Source of the DNA: Tubulanus polymorphus
Lineage: Eukaryota > Animalia > Nemertea
DNA: 64,000 nucleotides
Assembly (NCBI RefSeq): GCF_964204645.1
Contig: NC_134025.1
Span: 20,125,101 to 20,189,100 of the forward strand
Direction: 5' to 3'
Position 1 is the first letter of the stretch. Every line of letters begins with the position of its first letter. A program made the translations under genes and the position numbers. This document shows positions 23,801-58,147 of the stretch, in pieces. The notes beneath the pieces are model-generated. The model saw nothing but the letters and a program-made list of their open reading frames with translations, searched no databases and was not told where the DNA came from.

Positions 23801-26800
23801 GTCAGGTGTGAGATCGAAACGTCGTGTTCTTATATTTTAGATTGTTTAAATTGATAAATTCTCGATTTTAGATTTCTTTTAATTTGTAAATAGTGGATTT
23901 TTATCTTATCATCTGTTCACCACGTTTGAGTGTGGTTATCGTACCATATAATTTCAATATTCCAATGTTTTAGAAAATGTATTCGATATTAGGGCCGGGT
24001 ATGCCGGTTTCATGAGAACGATTCCCATTAGCAATTTATAATAGCATAGCTGTTGTATACGGCTCCGCGTCCACTGATCATATGAGTTTCAGGTGACAAT
24101 TCAATTCTTTATTGATACTTATGTTAAACATTACATGAGATTCCCAAATTCAATAAAGTTACAAATTTTAAAATAAGAAAACACAACATACAAAACACTA
24201 GTTAGTTACCTAATCGTTGGTGGTAAGCTTTTTATAATCGGATGGGCTTGTACCAACTATAAATATGATGTGGTTTGTGAAAATATCCGATCGTGAAACT
24301 AAACCACAGACAGGTTACTGACTAACAAAACACATGCGTAACTCATACAGAATAACATAAACAAGCCCATTGCCATTTCAAATGACGATATCTACTTTAA
24401 CCCAGACTCAAGGGATCGAGTGGCAGCCTCGGGACTTAATGCCAGGTCGACCTGCTACCCAATCGCCAAATCTCACAATTCCCCGGATTTCTTAAAACTT
24501 TGATTTCAAATTTCCAATCCCACATTAGCTTATCCCAAAAATTCTACATTTTTCGCAGGCGTCAAATAATTTATTAAAATTAATTTTCTTGTTTCTTTCA
24601 GTCCACCAGGATCTACAGATCGATTGACACGGCTATGTAAACATATAATTTCTCAGAGGAGGTATGTACACTATTAGAAAATGTTAGAAACTGCATCTAT
24701 GTATATTCACTAAAGCTCAGCTTATAAAGTTGTATACCACTGAATTGTTGTGTGATATACAACTTGTATAAGTTTTATTTCATTTTATTGAAGTTTCCAT
24801 GAATGTGTTGTGCAATAAAACTCTGTATGCAGTCAATAAATGATCAGTCAGTCCCAATGCTACAGAGTAAGCAGGGCGGAGTTTGCAGTGTAACGTTTCA
24901 TGTATTTAGCGCAATCGATTGATATGATGAACTGAATTTTTTTTTTTAATACATCACATGATACGGGATAAGGGCTGTGGCTTTGCTGATTTATTGTACA
25001 TGCAAAAATGAAATCTGAACTAACACATCTGTACAGCTTGGCCGCTTATACATGTACTGCTTTAAAACTATGACTTATATGCAGTCATCGACGTGTTCTC
25101 AATTTCTATGTGCACTTGACCCTAGTTTTTCTGCCAATTATTGGAACCACGGCTTTTTGGGCACGTAATCTACGGTGTTGTCATATCACGGAATCGCGGA
25201 ATTTTTTCATTTTCACTATGCATCGTAACCGTGTTTTTGCATGGTTGGACAATGCACCGGACGCATGTTTTCATTACCGGTACCTGGTAGGCCTATGTGA
25301 TAATCTATTACTATCGTCACTCAACAAATTAACGATAGGCCAGTAGTATACAAAATAGCGGTTCTGGCGCAGCCCATCCTTACCCCGGTATACCGTGTAC
25401 CCTCTCAAAGCTTTATCTCCACCTAAATACCCTAAGAAGACAACCCCTGTGGACCGCGGTTCTGGCGCAGCCCATCCTTACCCCGGTGTACCATGTACCC
25501 CCTCAAAGCTTTTTCTCCACCTAAATACCCTAAGAAGACAACCCCTGTGGACCATGGAAAACACGCCAAGGGGCCGGCAAACCCCCTCCGGCCCCTATTA
25601 ACCAACCGCTATAATGCACCTACAACAAAGTGTTATTTACATAGATATTTACAGTATATACAAGTATGTGAAACGCTCTGACCTGGAATTCACCTCTTAA
25701 GCTGACGCTATCAGCGGTGCGCTGCGACCTGATTGTCACTGATTGCGAAATAGCCTAGAAAGTTCTATGCTGACGCAGAAGCCGGCAAACAACCGAGACA
25801 TCGACAGGCAACCAGAGTCATGTCCCTTGGACATGGCCAGGCCGGCCAACACACCAGGTGAAGCGCATCTCGTGAGAGTCCTGGTTCACTCACCAAGGTG
25901 GATATAGATTCTGCGTGGTCAGAAATGGACACAGATCTGATCTATCAAAACCTGGTGAGTGACATTAAAGCCGGGTTGCCGAAAACCCTGAAACAGCGGA
26001 AATGTGAATTACGGAAGACGCTGTTCAAGAATGAAGCCAGCTCGAAAGAATTCTTCGGCCTAGTGAGAAAAATCAGCAAACTCAACAGGGCAAATCGGTT
26101 CTTTACAACAGCCAAGCAGATTATTACGGGTTCCCCGAGCAATCAAACGCAGGAGGATGCATTTCCGACTAAACGACGGGTGAAGGAATACTTCACGGAC
26201 CTGTATTCTAGTAAGCAGACCGGTCCTATTCCTAAGCCACCCGTCAAGAACGTTGCGTTCCCGTTCGATATGTCACCGATAACCGCAGCTGAAATCGAAA
26301 AAGCCTTGAAGAGCAGCAACCCAAAGTCCGCTCCAGGTCTAGACAGGATCAAATACGGACATCTCCGTCAGCACACCCATCGACTCGCGCGATTTTACAA
26401 CGACATACTAGATACGGGAAGGCCACCTTCGAAAATCTCGGCGTGGTGCACCAGTATTGTGACGCTTCTATTCAAGAAAGGGGACCGCCGGGATCCTGCT
26501 AACTATCGTCCGATTGCGGTTACAAGCGTGATCTCGAGGCTCCTTCATTGGATAATGGCGAAACGCATAGAACGCCACGTCATTAGGAACGGATTCATCG
26601 ACACTGCCGTACAAAAAGGATTCGTGTCGGGCCTTCACGGGACACTGGAACATTCTGAATTATTAGAGACTAAAATCATCGAAGCCGAAAAAACTGAAAA
26701 TGACTCATTTGTGACTTTATTTGACCTTAAAAATGCATTCGGTTCAATCGAACACGAACTGGTAAGTGAAACGCTATCTGTCATTGGAATTCCCGCAAGC

Positions 26801-29800
26801 TGGTATAGGTACCTAACGGCGCTGTATTCTCAAATTTCTAGCAAATTCAAAGGTCCTTGGGGCACGGTCGATATCCCCTACAAACGAGGGGTCTTTCAGG
26901 GTTGCCCTCTTAGCCCCCTAATTTTCATCCTGTGCGTAGAACCCCTCGTTAGAATACTGTCAACCGGGACATCCCTAGCCTATGCAGATGACACAACGCT
27001 GGAAACAAAATCGGCAAAAGCCCACTTAGATATAACGTACGTGTTTAACAAAAAAGCCAAGGAAATGAACCTCGAACTCAGGCCGGACAAATGCGTTTCC
27101 CTGAGCGTTAGATGCGGACGAATTGAGCCATTCAAAAACGAGATAGAGGGCAAAGACACCGCGACCCTCACCGATTTGGACAGAATAACGTATCTAGGCA
27201 AAATTTTCAGTCCCAAGGGACAGGATGGGGTGGGTGAAATTCTCCTCACAAAATTCAGGCAACGACTCGCAAACATAGATAACGCCGATATACAAAGCGG
27301 GACAAAGGTTCATATCGCTATAGACTATATGCTGAGAGCTGATTACCATGACCTCATGATCAACAACCTGTCTGATAATTGCTTGCAGTTAATCGACAGT
27401 GTCTTTGTAAACACGCTACATAAATGGGGTCACCGTCGATTGCTCACTTTTCAAGTACCGTCCACCGTATACCACTGGCTTCATGCGTTGAAGGTCTACT
27501 TCCTTATCACTTCTCCCGACGAAAAAATCGTTGAAGTAGCCATCTCGAAATTCGAAAACAGCCATTATCTCGATCTCGCTTTCGAATCCCTCAACCATAA
27601 AAACTCGAAGGCGTTCATAAAACGCCACTACTTAGGAATATTCGCGCACGCCACCCCCGACCCAGAAAAATTCCCCTGTAGCTCTAAGGCGTTTGACGTA
27701 TTCGACATCTATCCGGAGCATATACCCGAAGTGTATACAGACGGCTCGTGCCTGAGAAACGGTGCAGACGAGGCTCGTGCGGGCTACGGCGTCTACTGGG
27801 GACCAGACAGTCCCTTAAACACCTGTGGCGTCGTCTATCCACCTACCAACAACAGAGGTGAATTAACCGCTGTGGTCGTGGCTCTCAATCAGGCCATCCA
27901 GCTTGGTATTAACTCCTTGCAAATTTTCACCGACTCGAAATACGTTATAAACGGTATCACTGATTGGATCAAGACGTGGAAAGCCAGGTGCTGGAAAAAC
28001 GTCAAAAACCGCGATCTCTGGACACAACTGGATGGTCTGAATAACCGAGTCTCCGTATCTTTCAAATACGTCAGGGGTCACCAGGGGGTACACGGGAATG
28101 AGATGGCGGACCAACTAGCTAAATCGGGAGCAGCTCTCAATGGTAGTAATCCGGGGGTGACGTGTCTCTGTTAAACTCTAACGTTAACCTCCATCCAGCT
28201 TTTTTATGATGGAAGCCCTGGCCTGCTCCCTGCCCTGCCTGATGAGGTCCTTTTTTGTAGCCTCGTCGATCGTGATCGACCCGTGTTTTTTACGAGCCTG
28301 TGACTTGATATCCTGCTTCAAAGTCTGATAGTTCCTCTGTTCGGCTAGAATCAGCTTGAACTCGTCATCCGAAACAACTCCATCACTTATTGCCCTCGAT
28401 ACAAGATCTGACACGGTGCTTAGTTTGGAAGAGGCTAACACTCGAATTTCGTCGTGCTTTTTACCCTTGATCAGAAGCTTCCGACCGACTATCTTCCCAG
28501 ACACGCCTAAGACGCCTAGGACGGTCGCAACGGGGATGGTGATTATGTTTGTAAGCACGCCAGCGGCTCCCGTAGCCGCGACTGCTATGCTAGCCGTCAC
28601 GAAAGCCGCGTCAAATCCATCTATGGTTTTCACCGCCCTTTTATACTTCTTGTAGAGCGCAGCGCGGGATTGTCCCTCGGACTCTAAAATTTTCTGGACT
28701 TCGCATATTTTCTGCAGTCGGAAGTTCGACGCATCTTCAGTTGGAGCACTAGGCTCAGTTGGAACCATTGGGTAAAGTTTAGTGTCGCTATCCATGCTAT
28801 ATACTATGCGGGAAAATGTCGAGCTCGATGAGGAGTGAAGCTATCGTAGCTATTGCTCGAGTAGCGGGCGATCTTGACGACTTGAAATTGATGACGTCGC
28901 CCTCGGCCATTCGACTGGTGGAGAGAACGTTTTGACCGCGGCTTGGAAGACTCCTTTACCTTGGGGTTTGATCGGGCCCTGTAAAAGCCGAGCCTCTTTC
29001 GTGATTTCTCCTTTTTCCACCCTGTTGACGGTCAACACTACTGTGGTATTAGTTGTCAAGTCGCCACCGGAGAGGCCCATTTTTAGCACTCTCCCCACAT
29101 CATCGTGTAGCCCGCGTACTGGGATCGCGACCCATCACCGTACGAAAATTCGTAAGAGCCCTCACCAAGGGGTCCTTTTTCCTCGGCCCAAACGGTTATC
29201 ACAGGTTTTGTGGTGGACTGTGTTTTCCCTAATCCCCTGTACAAGTTCATCTCTATTCTAATGCGAGCAAAATTTGGAGCGGTTCCTGGAATCGAATCTC
29301 CTCCATGTCCTGATTGAAAACCTTGACCACTACGTCGGCGAAGCCGCCTTCCTTAATTGGTATCGGTACCCCGTAAACATACTCGAATGAGTCGCCGTAT
29401 TGACCTGCTTTCGGATGTAAAATGGCGATCAGGTCCGAGGGCACCCCGTTTAGGAAGTTTCTCGATTCGTCAACGAGATTGCACGTTACGCGGTATTCCG
29501 TATGCCTGGTAAACCTACATTCTTTCGTACCCCTTACACTAGCCTCTTTACCTTCGACGTTTGGGTAATATCCTTCTGGGACTCCCAACAGATCGGTGAT
29601 GGAGCCGCTGAAGAGCACTCAGTACGGTTTTGACATTGAGTTCGATGCGCCCCCTCGCCTCCACGTAGGCTATGTTAATGAAGCCCGGTTTGTGACCGTT
29701 TCGGGTTATGACTCGCTGAATTTCGTCGTTCAAACTCTCAACCGTGTAAAGTCCATTCCTGATAATCAAGTTGAACACTTTTTGTTGGTGCTCGTCCACC

Positions 29801-32800: not shown

Positions 32801-35800
32801 GAATAACCGTAGAGTATGCTGTTGATCAGACTGTCGGAAACCGCGGCGGAATAATGGTTTTCGTACTCCGTCCACACCCGTTCGAGCGCTTTCGAGTTCA
32901 TCTTCTTAAGTTGACCTTCGGATTTCTTGATACCTATTTTTGCAAGCAACCCGCTCTGAGAAAGCCCGACAAGTAGCTGCCTGCGCCCTTCCGACTCGTC
33001 GTCTTCGGGTGATTCTACATCCAACCCAATGTCACTCAGTAGTTCGTCGTAGACTTCGTCCATGTTCGCTATATGTTAGTCGTCCGAAATTTAGAATACC
33101 CCGTAGGCGAATGGATACTCGAGGCGCATGACGAGACGGGCCCGATTCCTAGCAGAGAGATCTGCGATCACACGTTCCCTTTTGGTTTTCGGGACGATGT
33201 TGTTTTCACGCAGAGCATCCTTTAAACCATCCTCGTCTTTTTGGTGGTACAGGACTAACATTCTCAGGTTTTCTCGGAAATCTTTCACAACGGCGTTGTA
33301 TTTTTGAGTGAGCACCCACACTGAGATATTCAGATGACGGCCCGAGAACGCGAGTTTCGTCAATTCGGACGACTTGGTTTTAGTATCCCTCAAGTTGGCA
33401 CAGTCGTCTATAAGAAACAGAGTTTGACAATGAGGATCGCCGTATACTTTGGTGCACGTGGAAAGCAAACCGTCTAGGTCGTTTAACACCGAACCCGGGT
33501 TCATGACGAAGATATTGGGGTCCTTCATCACAAACGATCTATCGTAGGTGGTGTTCTCGAGGAAAGTCGGGCAGAAAATCACTATATTGTGGAATTTGCC
33601 GCGATAGACAGATTGTAGGAGGTCGAGCACGTAGTCCGCAGTTTTTCCGCAGTTCGTTTGCCTCGACACAATCATGTTGAACGGGGGCTGTAACCAAAGC
33701 CTATCCATCTCCGCTATACATTAGAACAGAATCGCCTTTAATTGGTTGTTCTGGATGTTTACTTGGGCGTCGGCTACGACGTAAATGAACATCGTGTACT
33801 CCGTTGTGCTGGTACGGGTGATGGCTAACTGAACGCCGTCCTTTGTGTTGACCAACCTTAGACCAGATCCGTGAAGCGAGTTATCGTCTGTGCTTCTGAG
33901 ATCGATCCACAATGCGTATTTGTCGTCGACGAAGAACGAGAACTCGTCTATGTGCGACTCGTCGGTTTCTTTGGCCGATTCTGGCATCAGAAATCTTCTG
34001 CACTCTTCCCATTGTTGGTAAGGTTTCAGTCCTTGCTTGTAAACTTTGTGAGATATTCCTTCGATCGTGACATCGACGTTCTTGATTTTAGGGTTCTGAA
34101 ACGAGGTGGATTCGGAATCGTACTGCCCGTTGTCAAACTCTTCTTGAAAGAATATCAACAGGCCCTTCATCGACCTTCGGGGAACGTTAACGTTTACGTT
34201 CAGAATTGTTGAGGTTCCCGTGGATTGACTCCTGAAGAACGTGACGTAGTCGTACAAGAAGCTTACCCCGGCGGACAGGTCGCCTTCGATCTGTCTGGCG
34301 AGCTCCGCCGAATGCACGGTGTCGTATTCGAGGGCTATATTTTTCACGGAGTATCCCCATGCCTCCGCACTCCCGTTTACAGTGAACTTGATTTCGTTGA
34401 AAGTGATCTCCCTAACAAAGTCTTCGTTGATTGCGAACGGATAGAAAGGACCGTGGTCCGTGTACAGTTCGAAATCAATGGGTATGGCGTACCTGTTCTT
34501 AAACACCGACTTGATCATCGTTTCCTTGGTGTTGGTTTTCAAGGCGTCTTCTGCATCCGATCTGAGTTTCCTCAAGTTCTCGTTGCCGATTCCTTCCAGA
34601 ATCATGTTACTTCGCCTTTTGTCCGTAAGCCACAGATCTTTGTAGGTCTGGAAGACGAAGCTGTAGTTCAAATCAGATAAGATTTCACCACCCAGTTTGT
34701 CAACAATTCTGGCCATTAGGTTCCTCGAAATGTTGTTCACGAAGAAGTTATTAGCCGGACCCTCTTTGCTGAGGTCGAACGCGAGTTTCAAGCTTCCGGG
34801 TACCAGCAGCGTGTTCACCTGCAGTTTTGGTATCCTTACGTAAAGGGTTTCCCCCGGTGACACGGACGAAGGGTTGTGGGTAATAACCTCGTGGTGTCGA
34901 TCCGCCTTGACACCTAGCGGTGTTCGAATCTGTCTCGAAGGGTTCAAGTGTTTACCGTATGCAGACATAGTAGCTATACTGTAAGCCAGAAAAAACTCGC
35001 TTTTCCGTCTCATGGTAATTCTGACCAGCCACCTTGCTCGATAACCCAGTATGCGAGATTGTCGTTAAAGAACTCCCTCGTTCTAAATGCGATCTCTTCG
35101 ACGTAATAGAGGTTATCGGTGACTCGGAAGAAATGCTTAGCCAGATAGCTAGCGAATGCGATTAACGTGACTATTCGACCCCAGTTTACGCGGTTGTCGG
35201 TGAACATCTTCCAAATCGCTTCCAGATTTATTTCCTCCCAGGCGAAGCCGGACAGAGCCATGAACTGCAAACTGTATCGTTCAATGCCTGCGACCACATT
35301 CCCTTTCAGTTTTCTGCTGAGATCGTTGTCTTGAATAGGCTGCCCGGTAGCATACCATACTATCAAGTCACTCACAGGATGCATTTTGTCTCTACTATAT
35401 ATACCGCAGGAAAATGTTTCCACCAGAATTTGTGTACGATCCATCGTCGCGTTACTCCGTACCGGTGGTACCATTCAAAGACAAGCTCGACTACAGAGGT
35501 GACATTCACAAAGCTTTGACGTCGTTGAGGATACAAGTGTCGAGTAGGGTTGACGATTACTTTCAGACAACTGTACCGGACATATTCAGGATTTACCCGA
35601 TCCGCTTTAACAATCTCGGCGAGTTTCGAGTTTGGAGGCGCACGAACACGAAGTTCTGGCAGAACCAACTCAACTTTGCCATTTGGTGCGCCACAAGCGG
35701 TTGCGGGGTCTCCTGGAAGAACCACATGAACAACTCCTCTCCGTTGGTAACCAGTTTGTTCCGATTTCACGTTTATTATCAAACGAGGAAGATCCTATCG

Positions 35801-38800
35801 GAGATGAAATGTCCCCTACCAGCCAACAGCGGTTTCAACATGCTCGATAATCCCGTGAACGAACTAGCGTTTGAACGTATCTGCGGCGAATTCAATGTCC
35901 CCCAAAACACTGACTTTAGGTATTGGATCGGAGAAGCAGGCGATCTGGGCACGCTTTACACGAAACAGTACCTGAACGAAAAAGGATGGGTTAACTTCGT
36001 GGCACCCGAAAGTCACTGTCTGACCAAAGCCCGGGTGGAACGCCTGAACGACTCCATTCGGGCGTACGTTTACTGCATCCTAGGAGCCCAAGCACAAACT
36101 CGAAACGTCATCGTCGGTGACACCAGTACTGCGTTTGACGCTCAGAAACAATTCTTGGCCCTATTCGAGGACGCCGTACACGGCGAAGGCTCTCAGACTT
36201 TGGTAGATTCCATTCGGCGCTATCAAAACGCTATCAGTCAGACGCACAGTAAACTCGATTTCGCCGTCGGACCAAACCTCTACCTGATGCCGAGTGACAT
36301 GGTGCTGAAAATGGGAAGCTTGGTACGCTACAATAACAACATTAGAGTGGCTACCGACAAAATGAAGTTCGGAATCGATGACGTCAATGAGGCACGGCCA
36401 CCGCCAAAAATAGTTACCACGGAAAAGAGCAAAGTGGTTCGCGATATGCAAACAGCAGTACGCGAGGCCCCTCCCCCACCTAGGCCCTCACATCCTCCCA
36501 ACACTCCTCTTACGGTCAGACAAAAGGACAAACTAGCGTTCGCGTTAGGTACAGCAGTAATCGTAGCGTCTGGTGTGCATTTTCTCAAGAAGTAGGTATA
36601 GGGAAAGATGGAAGAGGTTTGGACGAAACACGGCTACTCGTCGGCCCTGAAACTGTACAGAATTATGAAAAAGCGTGATCCCGGTGTTACGTTCGCAGAA
36701 GTTGACAAGTTTGTATCGGCGAAGAAGACTTATCAGCTACATAAAAAGACGCGCAGACAAATTCAAGGACATATCGTAGCCTACTGCGAGAACTGCCTTT
36801 GGTTCGCGGACCTACTGGATCTGTCGAACTACGGTCGACGAAACAAGGGATACAAGTGGATTCTACTTTGCGTTGACGTATTCACTCGAAAGGCCTACGC
36901 GCAGCCGTTGAAAAAGAAGACCAAGGAAGCCGTCAAAGAGGGATTCGAGGCAATCATGGAAGGTCTCGGCGAGGAGAAAGTGACTCTAGTCACCGATTCT
37001 GAATCGGAGTTTCTAAACAAACCGATGCAAGAACTGTTTAGGACGCTGGGAATTGAACACAGGACTGTTGATGTTGGCGACCACAAAGCGCTTGGCATCA
37101 TCGACAGGCTGTCTAGGACGATAAAGGAGATCATTTTCAAGGATTTCACCGAAAGAGAAACCGTCGTGTGGTACGATCGTTTGCCAGATTACGTAGATGG
37201 CTACAACGCTACACCTCACGGGGGTATTTCAGATATGACTCCCGAAGAGGCCGGAGAATCCCGAAATGAAGAAAGGTTACTGTTCGAAAATATCGGCAAA
37301 TCCGAACCCCCTAAGAGCCCGTTCAAGCCAGGCGACAGCGTAAGGAAAAAGCTGAAAAGACCCGTGTTCAAAAAGGGTTCAAACAGTGCACTCCCTCGCG
37401 TCTGTGGAAGGCTTAAAAGGGGTCCTCGATAATGGAGAATCAGCTAGGTTGGACGATCTGCAACTAGTGATACCTCCAGCTGAAGAGAAGACGACGGTAG
37501 ACGCTGTGTCCGTAGCCGACAAAGAGCACAAGATAGAGCAGACTATCAAGCACAAGGAGGGTTTGTCACCCGAAGCGGTAATGCCCTCGAATAGCAGGTA
37601 CAGCCTGCGATCTAAAGCTCGTTGAGCAATTCCTCGACGTACTCGTCCAACGGAGTCCTGGCATTTTTGTGGCCGTAAGCGAGCGTAGCGATACCATCGT
37701 CGGCGATCCACCTCTTACTGTCGAAGGGACTGAGACTCTGCTTTGTCATACGCAGGCCGTACATTTTGTGACCCTCGCTTCTCAGCATATTCATTCCGTG
37801 CTGGAAGACCTTCTTTTGGAACAGACATTCCTTGTATTGCTCGTGGCGGATCTGTTTCTTCACCACGTTCTTTTTCACACCCTTGGCCTTCTTGATGTTA
37901 GTCTGATCGGCTTTTAAGATGCTGTACATCTTCGGTCTGAGCCCGACGTACTCCTGGATGGGTGTACCCGCGCACTCGTCTTTCATCTTACCTAGAACCT
38001 TCTTGTTGACGTTGCTATGCAGCGGGTGATTTCCCGGGTAATCGCTAGTATCGTAAAGGTCGTTGTTCGATTCCATGTCTTCGTAGATGTCTTCCGTCTC
38101 AATCTCTAGCAGAAGACTGTCGGTGTCAGTGTACAGCAATCGAGTACAATCGCCGTATACCTGTTTCATGTGGTTATAGTAGAAGTCGTACATCAGCAGC
38201 TTGCTGAGATCGAGCACAGACATCCCTACGTAAACGGGCCTATTCAGGTACAGATTAGTCTTGTACATGTGCATCGCGGCAAGATCGTCGTCAAACACCT
38301 TGGACCTGGCGAAGTTCGGCTTGGCTATCAACTTCCTCAACCTGTCTTCCTCGTTTCATCTGACAAGCTTCACGTCTACCCTGCGTCTAAGATTTTCCAT
38401 GGTCTTGCCGAATACGGAGTTATTCATCAGCTTGTACAGGTTCTTCTCGAAGTCGCTGGTTGCTAGCTTTCTTAGTTTTGTGTTCAGTCTTATATACGGC
38501 TCCATCCACGGCGATTGGTCGAATTCGAGGGCGCGATGAATCTTTGTGAGCTTCAGTCCTAGCTCCAGGTACAACTTAAGGTTCCTGTAATGAACGACGT
38601 ATCTCTCCTTGTTGCGGAGATTAGGCACCAGTTTTTCCGTTTCGGTCGAACCCCCCAGTCTTCCTAACAGATCTTGCTGGTACTGCGACATCCAAGCTTC
38701 TTGAACCTTAAGCCTTTCCGGTGCCAGTGGGTACTCGTTGTGCGAGTCGTGCAGCCCCCTGGGGTATTCCAAGTCTACCTCTAGAATGTAACCTTTCTCT

Positions 38801-41800
38801 GCGTCATCCGGATGTCCCGATACATTGAGTTCTTGCGGCCTTTCAACCCACTCGAATCCGCCCGTAGGCAGGTGTTGCGACATAGCCCAGCCATATAAGA
38901 TATTCGCGTCAAGGTACATTACGTGTGTCGTCGGCTTCTTTGGATCGTGACCGGGAACCAAAGGATTGTTGGCCCTGCAGTGGCGTTTGCTGACCATGGA
39001 AATGCCACCTCGCAGACCCTTTTCGATGAATAAGAACTGGTCGTAGTCCATTAAGAGCTCTAGTTTAACCTCTGTTTTCTTAAGTAGAGCGTCCCAGCTA
39101 AGACCCGGGCTGGTGTAATACTGTGCGGGATCTAGGCCGTACTGCTTCACGCAAGTGGACCTGAAATTCTCGAATACATCGGCGAGAAGAACCGTATCGG
39201 TCCTCAGATAGAGGTCGTGGTAGTCACCCATAGTACGGCACTGAAACTGAAACTACGGCACTAGTCTTGATCGCTGATTCCCGCCTCTGATAGCTTGCTG
39301 TAGAAGGCTCCTTTTGACGGAAGCTGGGTATCCTGGAATTTCTCCCAACTGTCCATGTACTCGTATGGGTATACGCCCTTTCTCAGTAACAGCTCTAGTT
39401 TTTCAGGTACAGGTTCGGCCGCGGCTGTCAGCGTAAAGCTCCCCTTAGCGGCTGACGCAACCAGTCTGTCAGTCTGTCAGGTGGGGCCAGCAAGAACTGC
39501 ACAGAATCGATGAACCGCAAATTACCGAGACTGAATGAGATGTACTTCTCCATGTTATTCGGGATGCACGTTATCTTTCCTTCAGTCCGACAGATTGCCT
39601 GCATGATGAGATGAGAGTCGTAACCGCGGAGGTTGTGAAACACAGCCGGTATAGGCGTGTATTTCGCGGACAGTCGCAACTTGAGATTGCACTCGTTGTG
39701 GGCCGGGCCCCGGTAGTCACCCGTTATGTGATCGTGATCCCTGACCCGATCCTCATAGAGTGGTTTGTCGCATACGTAGCAATTTTCCGCTTCCTCGAAT
39801 GACGTTTGCTCCTCCCGAGTAGTTACCATAGGCGCGGGATGGGCGAGCACGCCCTTGATTTTCTCCTCTTCCCCTTGGAGGTGCTGAAGGAATACCGCCG
39901 CAGCGTCTTGGCCTCTATAAAGGACGGGTGGTTCTTGTTTACCGTCGCTTCTCACTACCACGTACGAGAACCCGCACGCCTTGTGAAGTTGAGTCTTTTC
40001 GCTACCTTTCTGGTTAGGGTTCCTTCCCGGCCCCTCGAATTTGGTTGTAATGGCTTCGAAGTCGGCATAGATGACGAACGGAATCTTGAGCTGCTTGTGA
40101 TGATTGGTGAACCGCAGCACTTTGTCCTCCTCCGAGGGCATACTGGTACGCATCGGACCTCCGTTGACTCCTCGACAATCTGACCTGTGCCTCTCCAGGA
40201 GATCTTCTCTGGTGAAACAATGAAGGCACCGCTCGCAGCAGTGTTTCCTCCCTTCAAACTTACTCTGGGTGAACAACAGGCGATTGAGGTCTTTGATCCA
40301 TGTGTAATGCTGTTTCTCACCGCTCTCTACGAGTAGCAAGTTAATTCTAGGAATGGGGGCCGGGCCATCGCTGATATGCAGTGGGTACACGCCTTTGTCA
40401 TACCCGAACACGTTGATTGCCAGTCCGTTTTGTCGTTCGACCATAGGAATCTGACTCAATGGTGTTGGTGAATCGATGCCTGTAAAGTCAAGCTGGTCCC
40501 AGTGATTCGCATACTTCGATGGCCTCCGGGGGTCTCTCTCTACGGGGTATTTCGAGGCCAGTATTGACCACTTAAGGCAGTGATCATCTCTATTTTTGAC
40601 ATTTACGACGGCGTGTCTTCTCTTGACTGCGACGGGGAGGTCGATATAAGAACCGCCTCTCAACGGTTGATATCTGGCGATATTCAGGAATAGTTCGACT
40701 ACCCTCTCTACAGCCCATCCGGAACCTTCTCTCATATAATTCTCAATACTCTGTAAAACCCTAGCTTCAGCTTTACCCAACTCCTCATTTATGTTAGCCG
40801 CCTTCGATAGAACGTATTGCTTCGACCAGAAGGGCGGCTCGACGTGCGCATAGGTGCCGTCGTTCTTCTCCTTCCTCAACGAAACCCGCAGAGCAATGGA
40901 GAATTTTACACCCTTAAGGTCAATGATCTCCTCGACTAACTTCTCCCTTACATTGTTCCGCTGTTCGCGCAAGAATATCGACGGATCAGTCACATCGGTG
41001 GCTGGTCTCAAAACCCAGGCCCTCAGATAATTTTGGATAGCAAACGGGGCCCTATGAAACGCGGGTTCTGGCTCCGGTAGAATCTCATCCCAAATCGGAT
41101 CATCGTCCGGTATAATGTTTTCTACCTTGTACTTGGGTTTTCTGGGGGCGGGTTTTGGCTTTCTCGGAGCAGGCGTCGGTCTGCGGGTCAACTGGTTGAT
41201 GGCATCGGCATATGTTACGACAGTAATCTGCCCGTCTCGAAGTAAATCGGTCAGACTTTTTACCGCGCTGTCCATCTTGCTTTCGCATATATGAGAAATA
41301 TATGTCTCTAAATGGAAATTTTTGGGGGGCCCCTCGTCAGAAGTCGGCACACGCCGAATGTTGGCCGGGCCTGGCCATGTCCAAGGGACATGACTCTGGT
41401 TGCCTGCCGATGTCTTGGTTGTTTGCCGGCTTCTGCGTCAGCATAGAACTTTCTAGGCTATTTCGCAATCAGGTGGCAGCGCACCGCTGATAGCGTCAGC
41501 TTAAGAGGTGAATTCCAGGTCAGAGCGTTTCACATACTTGTATATACTGTAAATATCTATGTAAATAACACTTTGTTGTAGGTGCATTATAGCGGTTGGT
41601 TTATAGGGGCCGGAGGGGGTTTGCCGGCCCCTTGGTGTGTTTTCCATGGTCCACAGGGGTTGTCTTCTTAGGGTATTTAGGTGGAGAAAAAGCTTTGAGA
41701 GGGTACACGGTACACCGGGGTAAGGATAGGCTGCGCCAGAACCGGGGTCGGGCTGCGCCAGAACCGCGGTCCACAGGGGTTTTCTTCTTAGGGTATTTAG

Positions 41801-43767
41801 GTGGAGATAAAGCTTTGAGAGGGTACACAGTATACCGGGGTAAGGATGGGCTGCGCCAGAACCGCGGTCCACAGGGGTTGTCTTCTTAGGGTATTTAGGT
41901 GGAGATAAAGCTTTGAGAGGGTACACGGTATACCGGGGTAAGGGTGCGCTGCGCCAGAACCGCTATTTTGTATACTACTTAGGCCTACTTCCAGAGAAAA
42001 TGGAGAACCTACGAAGGCAGTTAATCTATCAACACTTTGACCGTATCTATGAGGTGTATGTTGTAGAATTATATAAAAGAGAAATATCCCAAAATGAACG
42101 ATGTCAGACAAAAACAGATACACATTATGCATATTTTGGCTTTGGATTTTTAATGCGTCTCGTGCATGTAAATTATGATTTATGCGAGTGTGGTGTATCT
42201 AGAAGAGTTAATAGAAGTTGAATGATATTAAAGATTATATATATAAAATGGTATCTTTTTTAACACTGTTATTTGTGGAGAGAAAGCTGTTACTTAGTTG
42301 CTTCTCTGTGTTGATTCCTTGGGTCAAAAAATGTAATATCTGTAATAGACGGAGGTTTCTATCAAAATAATTTTTAAGGAACCGCGGTACATGTTTGGTA
42401 GTAGCACATTTCACGCTTGCAGCCATCTGAAACTAGAGCGACCATGCTCAAATCTACTAAGATCACAAAAAATCGATTAACTTCGATAACCGATGTTTGC
42501 CCTGTTGCCATACTCTTTGTCCGACTACATGCTGACTGCTGCTGCAGCTGGTAACTGAACGTAATCAATGTCAGATAAAATTGCGTGCTAGTAGTGTGAT
42601 TCGTAGCTAACTCAGTGAATCAATTGGTCTTGTGCCCTGTCCGACACCGGGTATCCCTGTGGGAAAACCCGGTTACTGTTTATAGTGAAAGTGAAGAAAT
42701 TCCATGTTTTTTTTTTTTTTAATTTCGTGATTCCGTCATTCCGCGTCATGACAACACCGGGTAATCTAGGATGCTGGGTAGCTTAACGTTATTTTGATTC
42801 ACAATGAACTGAATACTTGTGAGCAGGAATTTTGATATAACTGATTTCATGTCGTTGATAATTGAGGCGTGACTGCATGTGATTATCGATTACTTTTCAG
42901 TTATTATCCACTTTATCCTCCTGGTGAAGATGTTAATCTGGAATTTGAAACGTTCGAAAACCATGCCCGACTACCATCTGTGCCTCATATACTTCTGGTC
43001 CCATCAGATCTACGATATTTCATCAAGGCAAGTTTCAAATTTAAATTAGCTGCATTATGCAGTAGATTCGATGTATCTTGGATCCTTTTACTCTGTAATA
43101 TTGCTCTTCTATGAGACGAGTCAGAAGTCTTAAGAACTGCAGTCTGCTGCATGTCCTATAGAGGTTATGCAAAGAGGTCATACACATTGTTTGTCATCAT
43201 AGTGTCCATCAATTGTGACTTAGCTTCAGGTAGCCCCTTGCACTAGATAGGCAATATGGCGCGCATCATGTGCATGATCACTATTGAGTACACTTGGCGA
43301 TCTCAAAAATATGAAGATATGTTCACTGAAGCATTTCTTCTCAATAGGTTCCTAGTGCACCAGCAAGAACACAAGACGCCAAAAATTCAAAATCCCTGAT
43401 TTCCAATTAGAGTCGGAATGCCCCAATTTTCCGGAAAAGATATACTGTATCTGAAATTCCTTAATTTCCTTGGAAAGAACTGATAGCGTCTCTTAGCAAT
43501 AAATAATTGCCCTTTTCATCAGGTGCTGCCCCTCCATATATGCACTGGATCCGCCCCTGGTCTACTGGTACATCCATTATTGTTTACTCGATGTACTTAA
43601 CGGTTTATGTTTTATGATTTTAGGAGGTTTCCAAGTGTTGTTGCATAAATCCTGGAAGATTGGCGAAAGGGAAAAGTGGTGGCACGTACGCTCGATTCTA
43701 TCTGCCTCACGTTGACAGTTCAAAACCGTTATTTCAACAACTTTCCGCTCAAGTGTTGAAAATTTAG
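8900..43767 (+). CDS. POLA2: DNA polymerase alpha subunit B, multi-exon; first coding exon not located in the window
   Basis: Exons read by hand with consistent phases: 8900-9021, 9894-9976, 10140-10197, 11415-11527, 16490-16680, 16757-16854, 17465-17620, 17942-18004, 18164-18203, 18524-18642, 22055-22164, 22361-22457, 22817-22926, 24602-24661, 42901-43027, 43624-43767. Conserved motifs: FMFQK, GRICCDS.GKLN, YSLFPGQVV, VACGPFTTS, LGPFID, VPSSRDVHH..YPQPPF, DPC...ING..IGLTSTD, QRSYYPLYPP, PSDLRYFIK, CINPGRLAKG..GGTYAR. Confidence 0.95.
9977..10139 (+). other. U12-type (minor spliceosome) GT-AG intron in POLA2
   Basis: 5' site GTATCCTTTT, branch point CCTTAAC at 10115-10121 about 18 nt before the CAG, little polypyrimidine tract, reading frame preserved. 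Confidence 0.85.
10443..10543. repeat. Short inverted-repeat element (MITE-like)
   Basis: ATAATCGAAGAAGTCCCAC ... GTGGGACTTCTTCGATTAT. Confidence 0.55.
11609..11833. mobile_element. MITE with CAGGGTGGCC termini and 5-bp TSD
   Basis: CAGGGTGGCCAC...GCGGCCACCCTG, flanked by TAGCA on both sides. Confidence 0.7.
11888..13368 (+). mobile_element. Helentron-associated interspersed element (HINE/DINE-1-like)
   Basis: 5' ACCTTCATGAC...GTCATGAAGGT hairpin, 3' subterminal inverted copy GTCATGAAGGT then stem-loop AGGCCCGTGGGCCT, T-run flanks, internal ~120-bp degenerate tandem repeats at 12.8-13.15 kb. Confidence 0.6.
13486..14076. mobile_element. hAT-like non-autonomous element with 6-bp TSD
   Basis: CAGAGTCGCCACTT...AAGTGGCAACTCTG, flanked by TAACTG on both sides. 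Confidence 0.75.
14718..15606. mobile_element. Non-autonomous DNA transposon with ~50-bp TIRs and TTA TSD (PIF/Harbinger-like)
   Basis: TGCAACCGTCAATTGTAACCCTGAACCCCCCCTCCTCAGG and its inverted copy ending at 15606; TTA on both sides. Confidence 0.75.
20187..20541. mobile_element. GC-rich palindromic MITE (PIF/Harbinger-like, TAA/TTA flanks)
   Basis: GGACACACTGGGCGATTTCGTCG and inverted terminal copy; several internal AATCGCCCAGTGTGTCCG repeats. Confidence 0.75.
20903..21524 (+). mobile_element. HINE/DINE-1-like element containing a (GTTC)n microsatellite and three ~120-bp tandem units
   Basis: 5' TTAGCTCCGCTGTG, 3' CACAGCGGAGCT plus short stem-loop and T-run; (GTTC)n at about 20953-21041; repeated GTCCTACAGTTTTAATCAGATCAA units. 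Confidence 0.7.
21553..21753. repeat. Near-perfect 101-bp tandem duplication in an intron
   Basis: CTGGTACTCTTGATTTTATTTC...GCATCATTCGGT starts at 21553 and again at 21654. Confidence 0.9.
22579..22619 (-). ncRNA. Minimal type I hammerhead ribozyme in a Penelope-like pseudo-LTR relic
   Basis: Minus strand CAC-CTGATGA-A-GCTACTA-TACAT-TAGTAGC-GAAA-GC-TC-GTG: complete core, 7-bp stem II, stem I CAC/GTG. Lies in an inverted duplication at about 22547-22697. Confidence 0.75.
23768..23809 (-). ncRNA. Second minimal hammerhead ribozyme (different Penelope-like family) at the centre of a ~190-bp palindrome
   Basis: Minus strand ACAC-CTGACGA-T-GATCTC-TAGTGT-GAGATC-GAAA-CG-TC-GTGT. Palindrome spans about 23704-23891. 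Confidence 0.65.
25342..25851 (+). repeat. Left terminal inverted repeat (~510 bp; two 98-bp tandem units at 25358-25553)
   Basis: Reverse complement of 41359-41979 apart from unit number and small indels; the match ends at ...GGCCAACA. Confidence 0.93.
25925..28174 (+). CDS. Non-LTR-type reverse transcriptase fused to C-terminal RNase H, no endonuclease (749 aa from the first ATG)
   Basis: RT motifs SAPGLDRI.Y, LLFKKGD...PANYRPI, QKGF...G..EH, DLKNAFGSIEH, RGVFQGCPLSP, YADD (26981-26992), YLG. RNase HI from 27731: YTDGSC, AGYGVYWG, TNNRGEL, FTDSKY, NRDLW, VRGHQGVHGNEMADQLA. Frame opens at 25862 after a TGA at 25859-25861. Confidence 0.95.
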   Translation: MDTDLIYQNLVSDIKAGLPKTLKQRKCELRKTLFKNEASSKEFFGLVRKISKLNRANRFFTTAKQIITGSPSNQTQEDAFPTKRRVKEYFTDLYSSKQTGPIPKPPVKNVAFPFDMSPITAAEIEKALKSSNPKSAPGLDRIKYGHLRQHTHRLARFYNDILDTGRPPSKISAWCTSIVTLLFKKGDRRDPANYRPIAVTSVISRLLHWIMAKRIERHVIRNGFIDTAVQKGFVSGLHGTLEHSELLETKIIEAEKTENDSFVTLFDLKNAFGSIEHELVSETLSVIGIPASWYRYLTALYSQISSKFKGPWGTVDIPYKRGVFQGCPLSPLIFILCVEPLVRILSTGTSLAYADDTTLETKSAKAHLDITYVFNKKAKEMNLELRPDKCVSLSVRCGRIEPFKNEIEGKDTATLTDLDRITYLGKIFSPKGQDGVGEILLTKFRQRLANIDNADIQSGTKVHIAIDYMLRADYHDLMINNLSDNCLQLIDSVFVNTLHKWGHRRLLTFQVPSTVYHWLHALKVYFLITSPDEKIVEVAISKFENSHYLDLAFESLNHKNSKAFIKRHYLGIFAHATPDPEKFPCSSKAFDVFDIYPEHIPEVYTDGSCLRNGADEARAGYGVYWGPDSPLNTCGVVYPPTNNRGELTAVVVALNQAIQLGINSLQIFTDSKYVINGITDWIKTWKARCWKNVKNRDLWTQLDGLNNRVSVSFKYVRGHQGVHGNEMADQLAKSGAALNGSNPGVTCLC
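28184..28795 (-). CDS. Polinton membrane-associated protein with central hydrophobic hairpin and N-terminal LYP/PSAP motifs
   Basis: Intact 203-aa ORF; hydrophobic AAFVTASIAVAATGAAGVLTNIITIPVATVLGVLGVSG; TATAG 1 nt before ATG. Confidence 0.8.
   Translation of the reverse strand: MDSDTKLYPMVPTEPSAPTEDASNFRLQKICEVQKILESEGQSRAALYKKYKRAVKTIDGFDAAFVTASIAVAATGAAGVLTNIITIPVATVLGVLGVSGKIVGRKLLIKGKKHDEIRVLASSKLSTVSDLVSRAISDGVVSDDEFKLILAEQRNYQTLKQDIKSQARKKHGSITIDEATKKDLIRQGREQARASIIKKLDGG
28797..29250 (-). pseudogene. Small beta-rich Polinton structural-type protein, two frameshifts
   Basis: MNLYRG...ITVWAEEKGPLGEGSYEFSYGDG...GYTMM / GRVLKMGLS...TFSPPVE / AEGDVINFKS...ASLLIELDIFPHSI*, joined across frames; fills the gap between penton and the next gene exactly. 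Confidence 0.6.
29253..29970 (-). pseudogene. Minor capsid protein (penton), one frameshift near 29610
   Basis: ORFs 29548-30042 and 29253-29618 join into about 240 aa with penton-type motifs YFNVS..NN.F.Y, NGLYTVESLN, VTCNLVD...NG..SDLIA, IPI...V.VKVFNQD...I.F. Confidence 0.75.
29982..31030 (-). pseudogene. Coiled-coil plus C-terminal membrane protein, interrupted by a stop (30374-30376) and a frameshift/deletion near 30285
   Basis: ORF 30374-31030 (acidic N-terminus, coiled coil) reads on past TAA, then shifts into ORF 29982-30281 (LAGKGAAALPGMIGTVVSFLL...LVLWFIAAVGL). Confidence 0.65.
31003..31498 (-). pseudogene. VLTF3-like (poxvirus A2 / NCLDV late transcription factor 3) C-terminal domain protein, one frameshift
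   Basis: F...FPRRKNFLSYGFFLNRILELHG...K...Q...LWE resembles the RKNFLSY.Y.L..L.ELLG signature as I recall it. The upstream part MDDPYGILP... (ATG 31498) is in another frame. Confidence 0.6.
31502..31921 (-). CDS. Small Polinton membrane/coiled-coil protein with an in-frame TAG at 31559-31561 before a C-terminal TM helix
   Basis: MATAAVIIGGAIANAVAFTGG...ERERHDKAMERL...; the frame continues after TAG as AFILGSVILTGVIAYKYL*. Confidence 0.7.
31924..32163 (-). CDS. Small hydrophobic Polinton protein (79 aa)
   Basis: Two hydrophobic segments, tight packing with neighbours, TATAG 4 nt upstream. Confidence 0.7.
   Translation of the reverse strand: MATNPDYRTIANVLYHSAILSGLTVGYAMLGKKMLRFDVGDPSKADLSEAMKLTVAVSLATISKDYLEKSKILPPNIGT
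32189..32512 (-). CDS. Small basic protein with a single TM segment
   Basis: MELEQVE...KQKSPGRVAWGKKLAE...WIAIGRLLVGLGALYY; TATAG 2 nt before ATG 32512. Confidence 0.65.
   Translation of the reverse strand: MELEQVEQVTTNPHKQKSPGRVAWGKKLAEISRQQRASKKTAAPIVGSDDENRTQSKHLQMWIAIGRLLVGLGALYYQRMALNQTPKPEENTEPTPEPLTCRLVEMT
32560..33063 (-). CDS. Polinton hypothetical protein (167 aa, acidic N-terminus)
   Basis: Intact ORF between ATPase and the small membrane genes; TATAG 5 nt upstream. Confidence 0.7.
   Translation of the reverse strand: MDEVYDELLSDIGLDVESPEDDESEGRRQLLVGLSQSGLLAKIGIKKSEGQLKKMNSKALERVWTEYENHYSAAVSDSLINSILYGYSKLCKWVRPKVDTEQLNKELTENFVITAEMKNQLGHLGRILKTPILAIANVAVITGKNMADSEESDLSTCPQVTSPLADK
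33091..33708 (-). CDS. A32/FtsK-HerA family DNA packaging ATPase
   Basis: PFNMIVS-RQTNCGKT (Walker A with the first G replaced by R), LFLIDD (Walker B), SGRHLNISVWVLTQ. Confidence 0.9.
   Translation of the reverse strand: MDRLWLQPPFNMIVSRQTNCGKTADYVLDLLQSVYRGKFHNIVIFCPTFLENTTYDRSFVMKDPNIFVMNPGSVLNDLDGLLSTCTKVYGDPHCQTLFLIDDCANLRDTKTKSSELTKLAFSGRHLNISVWVLTQKYNAVVKDFRENLRMLVLYHQKDEDGLKDALRENNIVPKTKRERVIADLSARNRARLVMRLEYPFAYGVF
33721..34968 (-). CDS. Major capsid protein (double jelly-roll, hexon-like)
   Basis: Intact ~415-aa beta-rich ORF next to the ATPase (NPSSVSPGETLYVRIP, LVPGSLKLAFDL, NIALEYD, NVNVPRRSMKGLL, LWIDLRS..D..LHGSG). Start placed at MSAYG after TATAG. Confidence 0.8.
   Translation of the reverse strand: MSAYGKHLNPSRQIRTPLGVKADRHHEVITHNPSSVSPGETLYVRIPKLQVNTLLVPGSLKLAFDLSKEGPANNFFVNNISRNLMARIVDKLGGEILSDLNYSFVFQTYKDLWLTDKRRSNMILEGIGNENLRKLRSDAEDALKTNTKETMIKSVFKNRYAIPIDFELYTDHGPFYPFAINEDFVREITFNEIKFTVNGSAEAWGYSVKNIALEYDTVHSAELARQIEGDLSAGVSFLYDYVTFFRSQSTGTSTILNVNVNVPRRSMKGLLIFFQEEFDNGQYDSESTSFQNPKIKNVDVTIEGISHKVYKQGLKPYQQWEECRRFLMPESAKETDESHIDEFSFFVDDKYALWIDLRSTDDNSLHGSGLRLVNTKDGVQLAITRTSTTEYTMFIYVVADAQVNIQNNQLKAILF
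35010..35384 (-). CDS. Viral Bcl-2 family protein (BH1 + BH2, no TM anchor)
   Basis: MFTDNRVNWGRIVTLIAF (BH1 NWGR) and WVIEQGGW (BH2). Start placed at 35384 from the TATAG motif; the ORF could extend to ATG 35444. Confidence 0.88.
   Translation of the reverse strand: MHPVSDLIVWYATGQPIQDNDLSRKLKGNVVAGIERYSLQFMALSGFAWEEINLEAIWKMFTDNRVNWGRIVTLIAFASYLAKHFFRVTDNLYYVEEIAFRTREFFNDNLAYWVIEQGGWSELP
35414..36595 (+). CDS. Polinton hypothetical protein, 393 aa, Pro-rich linker and C-terminal TM anchor
   Basis: Intact ORF; QLNFAIWCATSGCGVS, FHVYYQTRKIL, YVYCILGAQAQTR; C-terminal LAFALGTAVIVASGVHFLKK. Confidence 0.8.
   Translation: MFPPEFVYDPSSRYSVPVVPFKDKLDYRGDIHKALTSLRIQVSSRVDDYFQTTVPDIFRIYPIRFNNLGEFRVWRRTNTKFWQNQLNFAIWCATSGCGVSWKNHMNNSSPLVTSLFRFHVYYQTRKILSEMKCPLPANSGFNMLDNPVNELAFERICGEFNVPQNTDFRYWIGEAGDLGTLYTKQYLNEKGWVNFVAPESHCLTKARVERLNDSIRAYVYCILGAQAQTRNVIVGDTSTAFDAQKQFLALFEDAVHGEGSQTLVDSIRRYQNAISQTHSKLDFAVGPNLYLMPSDMVLKMGSLVRYNNNIRVATDKMKFGIDDVNEARPPPKIVTTEKSKVVRDMQTAVREAPPPPRPSHPPNTPLTVRQKDKLAFALGTAVIVASGVHFLKK
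36608..37625 (+). CDS. Retroviral-like (rve) Polinton integrase, frameshift near 37385 in the C-terminal part
   Basis: WFADLLDL...NKGYKWILLCVDVFTRKAYA.PLKKK, LVTDSESEF, GIIDRLSRTIKE, YNATPH...MTP, FKPGDSVR; tail continues in ORF 37386-37625. Confidence 0.92.
37612..41275 (-). pseudogene. Protein-primed family B DNA polymerase (pPolB), at least 3 frameshifts/indels
   Basis: Exo YADFE, FHNLRGYD, YLRTD..LLADVFENFR; KGVYPYEY (39.35 kb); Pol YLDANILYGWAM, KLMNNSVFGKT, YTDTDS, K.KGV; zinc module C..C...RDHDHITG.YRG.AH..CN; N-terminal NVKN.DDHCLKW...HYTWI (vOTU-like protease region). Confidence 0.95.
41359..41979 (-). repeat. Right terminal inverted repeat (~620 bp; three 98-bp units plus a ~22-bp internal duplication)
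   Basis: Reverse complement of the left TIR; units span about 41648-41963. Confidence 0.93.
43028..43623 (+). other. GC-AG intron (last POLA2 intron)
   Basis: AAG|GCAAGT donor right after the conserved PSDLRYFIK; joins in frame to EVSKCCCINPGRL. Confidence 0.8.
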
Positions 43768-57869: not shown

Positions 57870-58147
57870 GCAGGCGCGGATCTAGGGGGGTCTTTTCTAA
57901 GTGCCCTCAATAAACTTTGTTCGCAAAACAATTTCATGACTCAAAATGCAGGAAATGACTTCAAATCAGTGCTGGAATCTCAAAATTGTCTGGGGGGCCT
58001 CAGACCACCCCCCCCGGAAGGGCTTTCAGTAAAGCAGTGTTAGCCTCCTCGTTCGCTGCGCTCGGTGTGTTGTCAGTGCCCCTTTCTTTTAGGTATGCCC
58101 CTAGAATTCTGAGAAGACCCTCAGATTTACCCCTAGATCCACCCCTG
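57870..58147. mobile_element. hAT-like MITE
   Basis: CAGGCGCGGATCTAGGG...CCCTAGATCCACCCCTG termini. Confidence 0.55.

What the first reader, a model, noticed from the sequence alone, without database searches (positions are those of the whole stretch)
25852..28183. The RT gene has no hallmarks of a LINE insertion and is packed like a viral gene, mirroring pPolB
Seen: the reading frame opens about 10 nt after the left TIR ends, and the first ATG (25925) is 74 nt inside it, while the pPolB ATG (41275) is 84 nt inside the right TIR. Both point inward. The RT stop (28174) is 9 nt from the stop of the convergent 28184 gene. There is no 3' UTR, poly(A) or simple-repeat tail and no TSD, and GATATAG (25901-25907) precedes the ATG as for other viral genes. 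Inference: the two TIRs act as twin inward promoters driving the two polymerases, and the RT is a domesticated resident gene.
Basis: partly seen in the sequence, partly recalled or inferred. Interest (0 to 1): 0.82.

Follow-up and report, generated by a model that had tools for sequence, protein, structure and literature searches.

The report
Maverick element carries resident reverse transcriptase
A virus-like DNA transposon (a Maverick) in an animal genome carries an intact reverse transcriptase-RNase H gene with no endonuclease; it sits beside the same neighbour gene in a distant relative, so it is likely a long-kept gene of the element rather than a stray insertion, and it would let a DNA virus copy RNA into its own DNA.

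Summary
A 16.6-kb Maverick (25342-41979, 6-bp TSD) starts with an intact 749-aa RT + RNase H gene, with no endonuclease, tail or TSD. 'Resident gene' is now supported by data:
- Read depth puts the RT in about as many copies as the capsid block (about 7 per haploid genome), at one RT per two TIRs.
- An unrelated contig (L004) holds a 49%-identical RT-RNase H with near-saturated silent sites, tail-to-tail with a homologue of the same neighbour gene.
- The RT descends from R2-group (restriction-like endonuclease) LINEs, keeps their 5' part and has lost the 3' endonuclease end, the reverse of a LINE insertion.
- Endonuclease-less relatives exist; some giant viruses carry similar RTs.
'Twin TIR promoters' is untested and partly at odds with the RT's own TATAG motif outside the TIR. 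Weak points: only one relative has context, copies in this host drift neutrally, no RNA data, and the wider family is unresolved under a mixture model. The likeliest job, inferred only, is RNA-templated synthesis on free DNA ends of the replicating element (repair, gene capture). Ten literature searches found no resident Maverick RT.

The parts
25336..25341 (.). Left target-site duplication TAGGCC
25342..25851 (+). Left terminal inverted repeat (starts AGTAGT; two 98-nt tandem units; TATAA 25610, TATATA 25655, TGACG 25703 and 25771)
25903..25907 (+). TATAG motif, 17 nt before the RT ATG and outside the TIR; candidate start-site motif (untested)
25925..28174 (+). Intact 749-aa reverse transcriptase-RNase H gene; no endonuclease or zinc knuckle
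26477..27199 (+). RT domain (Pfam RVT_1, residues 185-425; D267 and YADD D355/D356); best fold match R2 retrotransposon protein
27728..28132 (+). RNase H domain (residues 602-736; D606, E646, D670, H719, D729); best solved match human RNase H1
28184..28795 (-). 203-aa convergent gene of a Polinton-associated family; homologue also tail-to-tail with the RT in L004
31003..31299 (-). VLTF3-like late transcription factor fragment (below Pfam cut-off)
33091..33708 (-). A32-type packaging ATPase
33721..34968 (-). Likely double-jelly-roll major capsid protein (415 aa from the TATAG-marked ATG)
   Evidence: feature scores 0.97-0.98 to capsid clusters; no Pfam hit; single-sequence fold failed
35010..35474 (-). 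Intron-free Bcl-2 family gene
36608..37432 (+). Retroviral-type (rve) integrase
37612..41275 (-). Protein-primed DNA polymerase B, broken into three ORFs in this copy
41359..41979 (-). Right terminal inverted repeat
41980..41985 (.). Right target-site duplication TAGGCC

Best explanation
This Maverick carries an intact reverse transcriptase-RNase H gene without an endonuclease, which is likely a long-resident accessory gene of one Maverick lineage and would copy RNA into DNA starting from free DNA ends of the replicating element. Shown: the gene, its active-site residues, its presence in about all copies in this host, and one distant relative with the same neighbour. Inferred origin: an R2-group (RLE) LINE protein lost its zinc knuckle and endonuclease, became a 580-690-aa stand-alone RT, and one branch gained a cellular-type RNase H1 at its C-terminus. 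Inferred mechanism: lacking a nuclease it cannot retrotranspose by the usual route and is copied with the element by pPolB and integrase. It would extend 3' ends at breaks or stalled strands of the linear element DNA on RNA templates, and its RNase H would clear the RNA for second-strand synthesis. That would give RNA-templated repair and occasional capture of host mRNAs. Odds: resident and under protein-level selection about 0.75; this particular activity about 0.35.
For: Same depth as the element core in an independent WGS run: RT 60.5 against 60.4 over 13 central bins; 7.4 times the single-copy flank; inner TIR: RT start = 2.05. Contig 25824-27723 in X1 and pieces in X2-X4 run from the TIR edge into the RT. 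L004: 49% amino-acid identity over 525 codons with four-fold sites 31% identical (n=121), and a homologue of the 28184-28795 gene 65 nt downstream, convergent. That neighbour family also lies in Polinton-like contig L080, with pPolB, A32 ATPase, DJR capsid and a weak protease match. P0001: the same RT + RNase H layout, 733 aa, 41% over 98%. Residues 22-521 align at 30% to a full RLE element (L078, residues 94-643 of 979), whose zinc knuckle and endonuclease are missing here. Five of seven RNase-H-less relatives end in YP[ED], matched by YPE 596-598 just before the RNase H. GC3 0.54 and codon score 0.148, within the 0.065-0.30 of 13 element ORFs; host-side ORFs score -0.10 to -0.25. All catalytic residues are present.
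Against: Only 1 relative has genomic context, and it shows one neighbour gene, not a whole Maverick; it also has a frameshift near its 5' end. The neighbour gene has much closer homologues (79%, 63%, 62%) of unknown context, and L080 has no RT in the 16.8 of 17.6 kb held, so the RT is patchy. Variants among copies in this host show no selection: 6 of 19 synonymous, 5.9 expected (other genes 4 of 17), and some copies have deletions inside the RT. Two of the three 750-nt k-mer windows over the RT score lower (0.009, 0.020) than the rest of the element (0.040-0.069). No host LINE was available for comparison. The wider endonuclease-less clade is strong under LG+G but unresolved under LG+C20, where only window + P0002 holds (99/96). 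No expression or activity data, and no captured gene with a poly(A) scar was found.
Confidence: 0.6

Rival explanations
1. A selfish, endonuclease-free retroelement that specialises on Mavericks and other DNA viruses. It copies its own RNA into free ends or breaks near the left TIR, has virus-like expression signals, and gives the element nothing.
For: Patchy distribution: L080 lacks it, and the L004 neighbour gene (34%) is more distant than many homologues of unknown context. Protein-level selection is also expected of a selfish element. Retroelements nested in Polinton-like viruses are published (PMC12220804 and 10.64898/2026.07.28.741278, passages).
Against: No UTR room (73 nt 5', 9 nt 3'), no tail, TSD or repeat, no Rfam match. 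No RT-less copy class in depth ratios. The same neighbour in a distant lineage would need repeated targeting without a nuclease.
Confidence: 0.2
2. Resident gene with an interference role: the RT makes cDNA on transcripts of a helper giant virus or of the host, and the RNase H destroys the RNA in the hybrid.
For: RT and RNase H are fused and both are conserved (RNase H 56% to L004). The VLTF3-like gene and TATAG motif hint at contact with giant-virus transcription. Giant-virus contigs carry RTs that may be related.
Against: No primer source or partner RNA is identified. Most relatives lack the RNase H. No direct evidence.
Confidence: 0.1
3. A recent LINE fragment that landed in the founder copy and was amplified passively; it has no function.
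For: Neutral variant pattern among copies; the family is young (most reads 95-100% alike), so an intact frame needs no selection.
Against: The syntenic relative at 49% identity with saturated silent sites. The 3' end of the donor is what is missing. No endonuclease-bearing protein is close: the best full-length ones are 33-35% identical. No TSD or tail.
Confidence: 0.07
4. First reader's promoter claim, scored on its own (not exclusive of the others): both TIRs act as inward promoters that co-express RT and pPolB as early genes.
For: Both ATGs lie 74 and 84 nt inside identical TIR ends and point inward. The TIR holds TATA-like and TGACG words. RT and pPolB both deviate from the tight TATAG spacing of the capsid-block genes. 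Promoters next to adenovirus ITRs are a recalled analogy.
Against: The spacers are unrelated. The RT has its own TATAG outside the TIR. The TIR holds 7 ATGs that a long leader would have to pass. Such short words are common by chance.
Confidence: 0.3

Closest known systems
Polintons/Mavericks (adintoviruses, coral polintoviruses)
   Same: TIRs, 6-bp TSD, pPolB, rve integrase, A32 ATPase, likely DJR capsid. Bcl-2 genes (PMC8502044, passage) and VLTF3 genes (PMC11131425, passage) are known accessory genes.
   Different: It carries an RT-RNase H gene at one end. The main texts of PMC8502044, PMC11131425 and 10.64898/2026.06.19.733378 hold no 'reverse transcr' or 'RNase'. No cysteine protease was detected.
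Retrotransposons nested in Polinton-like viruses and virophages (cryptophyte PLVs, Halocafeteria LINEs, Ngaro in Cafeteria)
   Same: An RT gene inside a Polinton-like element.
   Different: Those are described as 4-9.5-kb GC-deviant insertions, often with repeats or integrase, some disrupting genes (PMC12220804 passages). This one is a single 2.25-kb ORF of matching GC, has no mobility enzyme, and is in about all copies.
RLE (R2-group) non-LTR retrotransposons; the label 'HERO-like' for the nearest group is recalled, not tested against reference sequences
   Same: RT sequence and fold: best matches R2Bm 8gh6; nearest tree neighbours carry RT + CCHC + PD-(D/E)xK motifs.
   Different: No zinc knuckle, endonuclease, 3' UTR or tail. 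C-terminal RNase H with His at the fourth catalytic position, whereas the RLE precedent (oomycete Utopia) has an archaeal-type RNase H upstream of the RT (PMC4640811 passages).
Stand-alone RT genes of large DNA viruses (loci L001-L003; L053, L059, L063; 'MegaRT' in PMC11071296)
   Same: Endonuclease-less LINE-type RT ORFs (483-681 aa) packed among viral genes.
   Different: None has RNase H. L001-L003 group with APE-type LINEs, a separate origin. L053/L059/L063 fall inside this family under LG+G (98) but are long, AT-biased branches and unresolved under C20. MegaRT is described as group II intron-like (passage).

Membership tests
Polinton/Maverick | Long TIRs with AG..CT termini and 6-bp TSD | tested here: met
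   510/621-nt TIRs, AGTAGT..ACTACT, TAGGCC twice
Polinton/Maverick | Protein-primed PolB | tested here: met
   DNA_pol_B_2 E 1e-12; three ORFs match the intact pPolB of L080; broken in this copy
Polinton/Maverick | Retroviral-type integrase | tested here: met
   rve E 1.4e-11
Polinton/Maverick | Packaging ATPase | tested here: met
   Pox_A32 E 2.9e-14
Polinton/Maverick | Double-jelly-roll major capsid protein | tested here: inconclusive
   Atlas feature scores 0.97-0.98 to clusters with DJR/Capsid_N on 10-24% of members; no Pfam hit; BLASTP to the L080 capsid E 1.1; fold pLDDT 30
Polinton/Maverick | Adenovirus-type cysteine protease (common, not universal) | tested here: inconclusive
   no Pfam hit among 19 element ORFs and no tblastn hit with the L080 protease; a divergent or broken one could be missed
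RLE non-LTR retrotransposon (R2 group) | R2-type RT domain | tested here: met
RLE non-LTR retrotransposon (R2 group) | C-terminal CCHC knuckle and PD-(D/E)xK endonuclease | tested here: not met
   (only RVT_1, RNase_H, RVT_3); alignment to L078 ends at residue 521
RLE non-LTR retrotransposon (R2 group) | 3' UTR or tail, target duplication, independent insertions | tested here: not met
   depth equal to the element core
APE non-LTR elements with RNase H (I group, L1-type) | N-terminal APE endonuclease and RT grouping with APE clades | tested here: not met
   no APE domain; RT groups with RLE rows; RNase H groups weakly with cellular RNase H1 rows, not with those elements
LTR / DIRS / Ngaro nested element | Terminal repeats, gag, integrase or tyrosine recombinase with the RT | tested here: not met
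Domesticated viral RT gene | Expressed and required or beneficial for the element | not testable with these tools
   no RNA run, no assay
Domesticated viral RT gene | Conserved position and protein-level constraint across lineages | tested here: met
   one relative only:

The most novel reading that the evidence does not exclude
A lineage of Mavericks has built reverse transcription into its life cycle: a second, virus-encoded polymerase with RNase H that repairs, completes or enlarges the DNA genome from RNA. It would be drawn from an unrecognised endonuclease-free RT family shared with giant DNA viruses.
Probability: 0.15. Interest if true: 0.92.

Novelty: new variant of a known kind. Interest (0 to 1): 0.7.

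Why it matters
Polintons are defined as DNA-to-DNA replicators, and the RTs reported inside Polinton-like elements in the papers read here are described as parasites. A kept, nuclease-free RT-RNase H would be a retrotransposon enzyme turned into a viral gene. How DNA viruses capture intron-free host genes is an open question; in poxviruses the host's LINE-1 does it (PMC9578709, abstract and passages). Here the element encodes a candidate enzyme itself, as one intact 749-aa protein that can be expressed and assayed. The search also turned up a small family of stand-alone RTs and similar genes in giant-virus contigs whose function could be tested the same way.

Tried and rejected
No whole genome is held for this window, so copies were judged from reads. 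No RNA holder was listed; this says nothing about expression. Scans of viral contigs with RT alignments gave only L001-L003 or nothing, and scans with the capsid and the single 203-aa protein gave nothing. The genome-contig scan gave 2 loci, both ordinary eukaryote-type retrotransposons. Of 77 loci, only L004 matched any of 19 element proteins. The context of P0001, P0003-P0005, P0048, P0053, P0070, P0136 and P0254 could not be fetched; they are unnamed and on short contigs. The record behind L080 is not held, so its first 846 nt were not searched. Within-host synonymous test: uninformative, since all genes drift (only the best-supported variants were listed). The sigma-70 scan does not apply. 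Rfam: 0 matches. The single-sequence capsid fold failed. Monophyly of the endonuclease-less family and its link to giant-virus RTs are not claimed as shown; no AU test was run. Earlier-findings look-ups by sequence, words and place gave nothing on this element. Rejected: LTR/DIRS insertion, APE-LINE origin, 5'-truncated LINE, assembly chimera (reads and contigs from two studies cross the TIR-RT and RT-neighbour borders).
Full report
1. The element. Composition rises from about 0.37 to 0.49 GC between 25.3 and 42 kb. The ends are TIRs at 25342-25851 and 41359-41979, beginning AGTAGT and flanked by TAGGCC on both sides. Inside are an rve integrase, an A32 ATPase, a pPolB in three ORFs, a VLTF3-like fragment and a Bcl-2 gene, and a likely jelly-roll capsid gene. 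No protease was detected. This is a Maverick/Polinton. The host is an animal (7tm_1 gene, BEL/Pao element). A mollusc is a guess from one atlas cluster; no genome is held.

2. The observation. The motif needs correcting. The shared word is TATAG, 1-10 nt before the ATG in 9 of 16 other ORF starts, 17 nt in the RT, and TATATG at 11 nt in pPolB. A TATAG within 20 nt has a chance of about 0.02, so the RT's motif is probably real but atypical.

3. The protein. 25925-28174 encodes 749 aa with RVT_1 at 185-425 and RNase_H at 602-736 and nothing else. The RT aspartates (D267, D355, D356) and the RNase H residues (D606, E646, D670, H719, D729) are present. The best solved sequence matches are human RNase H1 (E 5e-30) and the R2Bm protein (E 2e-22). 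The model (pLDDT 73.5) matches R2 proteins first. Residues 22-521 align at 30% with residues 94-643 of a complete 979-aa RLE element, L078; its zinc knuckle and endonuclease have no counterpart. LINE insertions start at the 3' end and lose the 5' end (established knowledge), and this gene shows the reverse.

4. Is it in all copies? Four runs hold the stretch, all from one study, and a raw WGS run from a second study was added by species label. In that run (X5) depth is 60.5 over the RT and 60.4 over 13 central bins. It is 62 against 8.4 on the single-copy flank, about 7 copies per haploid genome, and the inner TIR is 2.05 times the start of the RT. A large RT-less class would raise that ratio. 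No listed joint skips the whole RT, but only 15 of 31 and 15 of 160 joints were shown. Some copies have deletions inside the RT, and others across the integrase. Listed RT variants are 6 of 19 synonymous against 5.9 expected; other genes give 4 of 17. Integrated copies therefore drift, and this test cannot show selection.

5. Is it old? Among 47 hits, two have the same RT + RNase H layout at high similarity: P0001 (733 aa, 41% over 98%) and P0002 (51%). The all-length search has the same top hits, and the best full-length endonuclease-bearing proteins are 33-35% identical. The contig of P0002 was recovered as L004, 1 of 74 metagenome loci. It carries, 65 nt past the RT stop and convergent, a homologue of the 28184-28795 gene (35% over 111 aa, E 9e-12). 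Over 525 codons the RTs are 49% identical in amino acids but only 31% at four-fold sites, so both domains have long been constrained as protein. The neighbour family is Polinton-associated: L080 has it together with pPolB, ATPase, DJR capsid and a weak protease match, but no RT in the part held. Limits: one syntenic case, one neighbour, a frameshift near the 5' end of the L004 gene, and closer homologues of the neighbour (79%, 63%, 62%) with unknown context.

6. A wider family. Seven more relatives lack both endonuclease and RNase H; five of them are 580-686 aa and end in YP[ED], matched by YPE at 596-598 here. A profile search added P0254. Under LG+G these form one clade among RLE elements (0.992). 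In a smaller tree that clade also takes in three giant-virus RTs (SH-aLRT 98; 58 rows chosen by me from the 194, plus L059). Under LG+C20 (41 rows) it is unresolved, and only window + P0002 is firm (99/96). The RNase H groups weakly with cellular RNase H1 proteins, away from the RNase H of APE elements. The name HERO for the neighbouring RLE group is recalled.

7. Composition. RT GC 0.48, GC3 0.54, CpG ratio 1.14; codon score 0.148 within the 0.065-0.30 of 13 element ORFs, against -0.10 to -0.25 for five host-side ORFs. Two of three k-mer windows over the RT are the lowest in the element's interior but still on its side. No host LINE was at hand.

8. Promoters. The TIR holds TATAA, TATATA and two TGACG words, but also 7 ATGs, and the two spacers are unrelated. 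If TATAG marks start sites, the RT does not need the TIR. If the TIR drives early genes, the odd spacing in RT and pPolB would fit. There are no RNA data, so this stays open (about 0.3).

9. How it likely works. Shown: an intact two-domain enzyme gene, carried by about all copies, conserved in place in one distant lineage. Inferred: without a nuclease it is not self-mobile by target-primed reverse transcription. It would use 3' ends that arise on the linear element DNA, copy an RNA, and remove the RNA with its own RNase H, giving RNA-templated repair and occasional mRNA capture. The Bcl-2 gene is the kind of product expected, but no scar ties it to this enzyme. Rivals are a virus-specialised selfish retroelement (0.2), RNA interference with a helper virus or host (0.1) and a recent passenger (0.07).

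10. What is known. Ten searches found no report of a resident RT in a Maverick. Passages were read in PMC12220804 and 10.64898/2026.07.28.741278 (RTs as nested insertions), PMC11071296 (RTs in large DNA viruses), PMC8502044, PMC11131425 and 10.64898/2026.06.19.733378 (no RT or RNase in the main text), PMC6431247, PMC4640811 and PMC9578709 (abstract, passages). PMC8547959 was seen as a listing only. Supplements, Repbase and most subscription journals were not seen and could hold an annotated Polinton with this gene. One earlier scan note (e1-8577180, unchecked) describes gene sharing between a Polinton-like element and an LTR element, a loose parallel only.

11. Verdict. Observation confirmed; resident gene likely; twin-promoter idea untested; function inferred. 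New variant of a known kind, interest 0.7.

Noticed in passing
window 28184-36608: TATAG sits 1-10 nt before the ATG of 9 genes (capsid, ATPase, integrase and six small ones), and the element has a VLTF3-like fragment; this suggests a shared late-type start motif.
   Followed up: partly
window 27319-27331: A TATAG 5 nt before an in-frame ATG inside the RT could give a 281-aa product holding the RNase H; the Met is not kept in P0001 or P0002, so probably chance.
   Followed up: partly
window 34924-39625: Read depth falls to about 28 against 60 across the integrase region because some copies carry large deletions there, while the RT keeps full depth.
   Followed up: partly
window 35010-35474: Intron-free Bcl-2 family gene, a candidate captured host gene; no poly(A) scar was looked for.
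   Followed up: no
window 39428-41275: The N-terminal part of pPolB holds an endonuclease VII-like motif, residues 493-532; whether it could nick DNA for the RT is untested.
   Followed up: no
L053:4116-5966, L059:8302-10344, L063:5225-7087: Giant-virus-like contigs carry 617-681-aa endonuclease-less RTs; L053 and L059 share P9_TM and TTL-like neighbours; L058 and L065 match like L059.
   Followed up: partly
L001-L003, about 9614-11170: Three 186-211-kb large DNA virus contigs (NCLDV capsid, D5 primase nearby) carry 483-487-aa endonuclease-less RTs of the APE-LINE side of the tree; they recall fish iridoviruses (recalled, not tested).
   Followed up: partly
L078, L079: Complete or near-complete eukaryote-type non-LTR retrotransposons on short contigs of bacterial MAGs, probably binning contamination.
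   Followed up: no
L080: AT-rich Polinton-like contig with all genes on one strand, pPolB 49-52% identical to this element's, no integrase or RT seen.
   Followed up: partly
window 1165-4604: Fragmented BEL/Pao LTR retrotransposon.
   Followed up: no
window 52108-64000: Several copies of a non-coding element with 154-nt tandem units, in both orientations and partly nested.
   Followed up: no
window 25358-25553 and 41648-41967: The TIRs differ in the number of 98-nt tandem units (two left, three plus a short duplication right).
   Followed up: no
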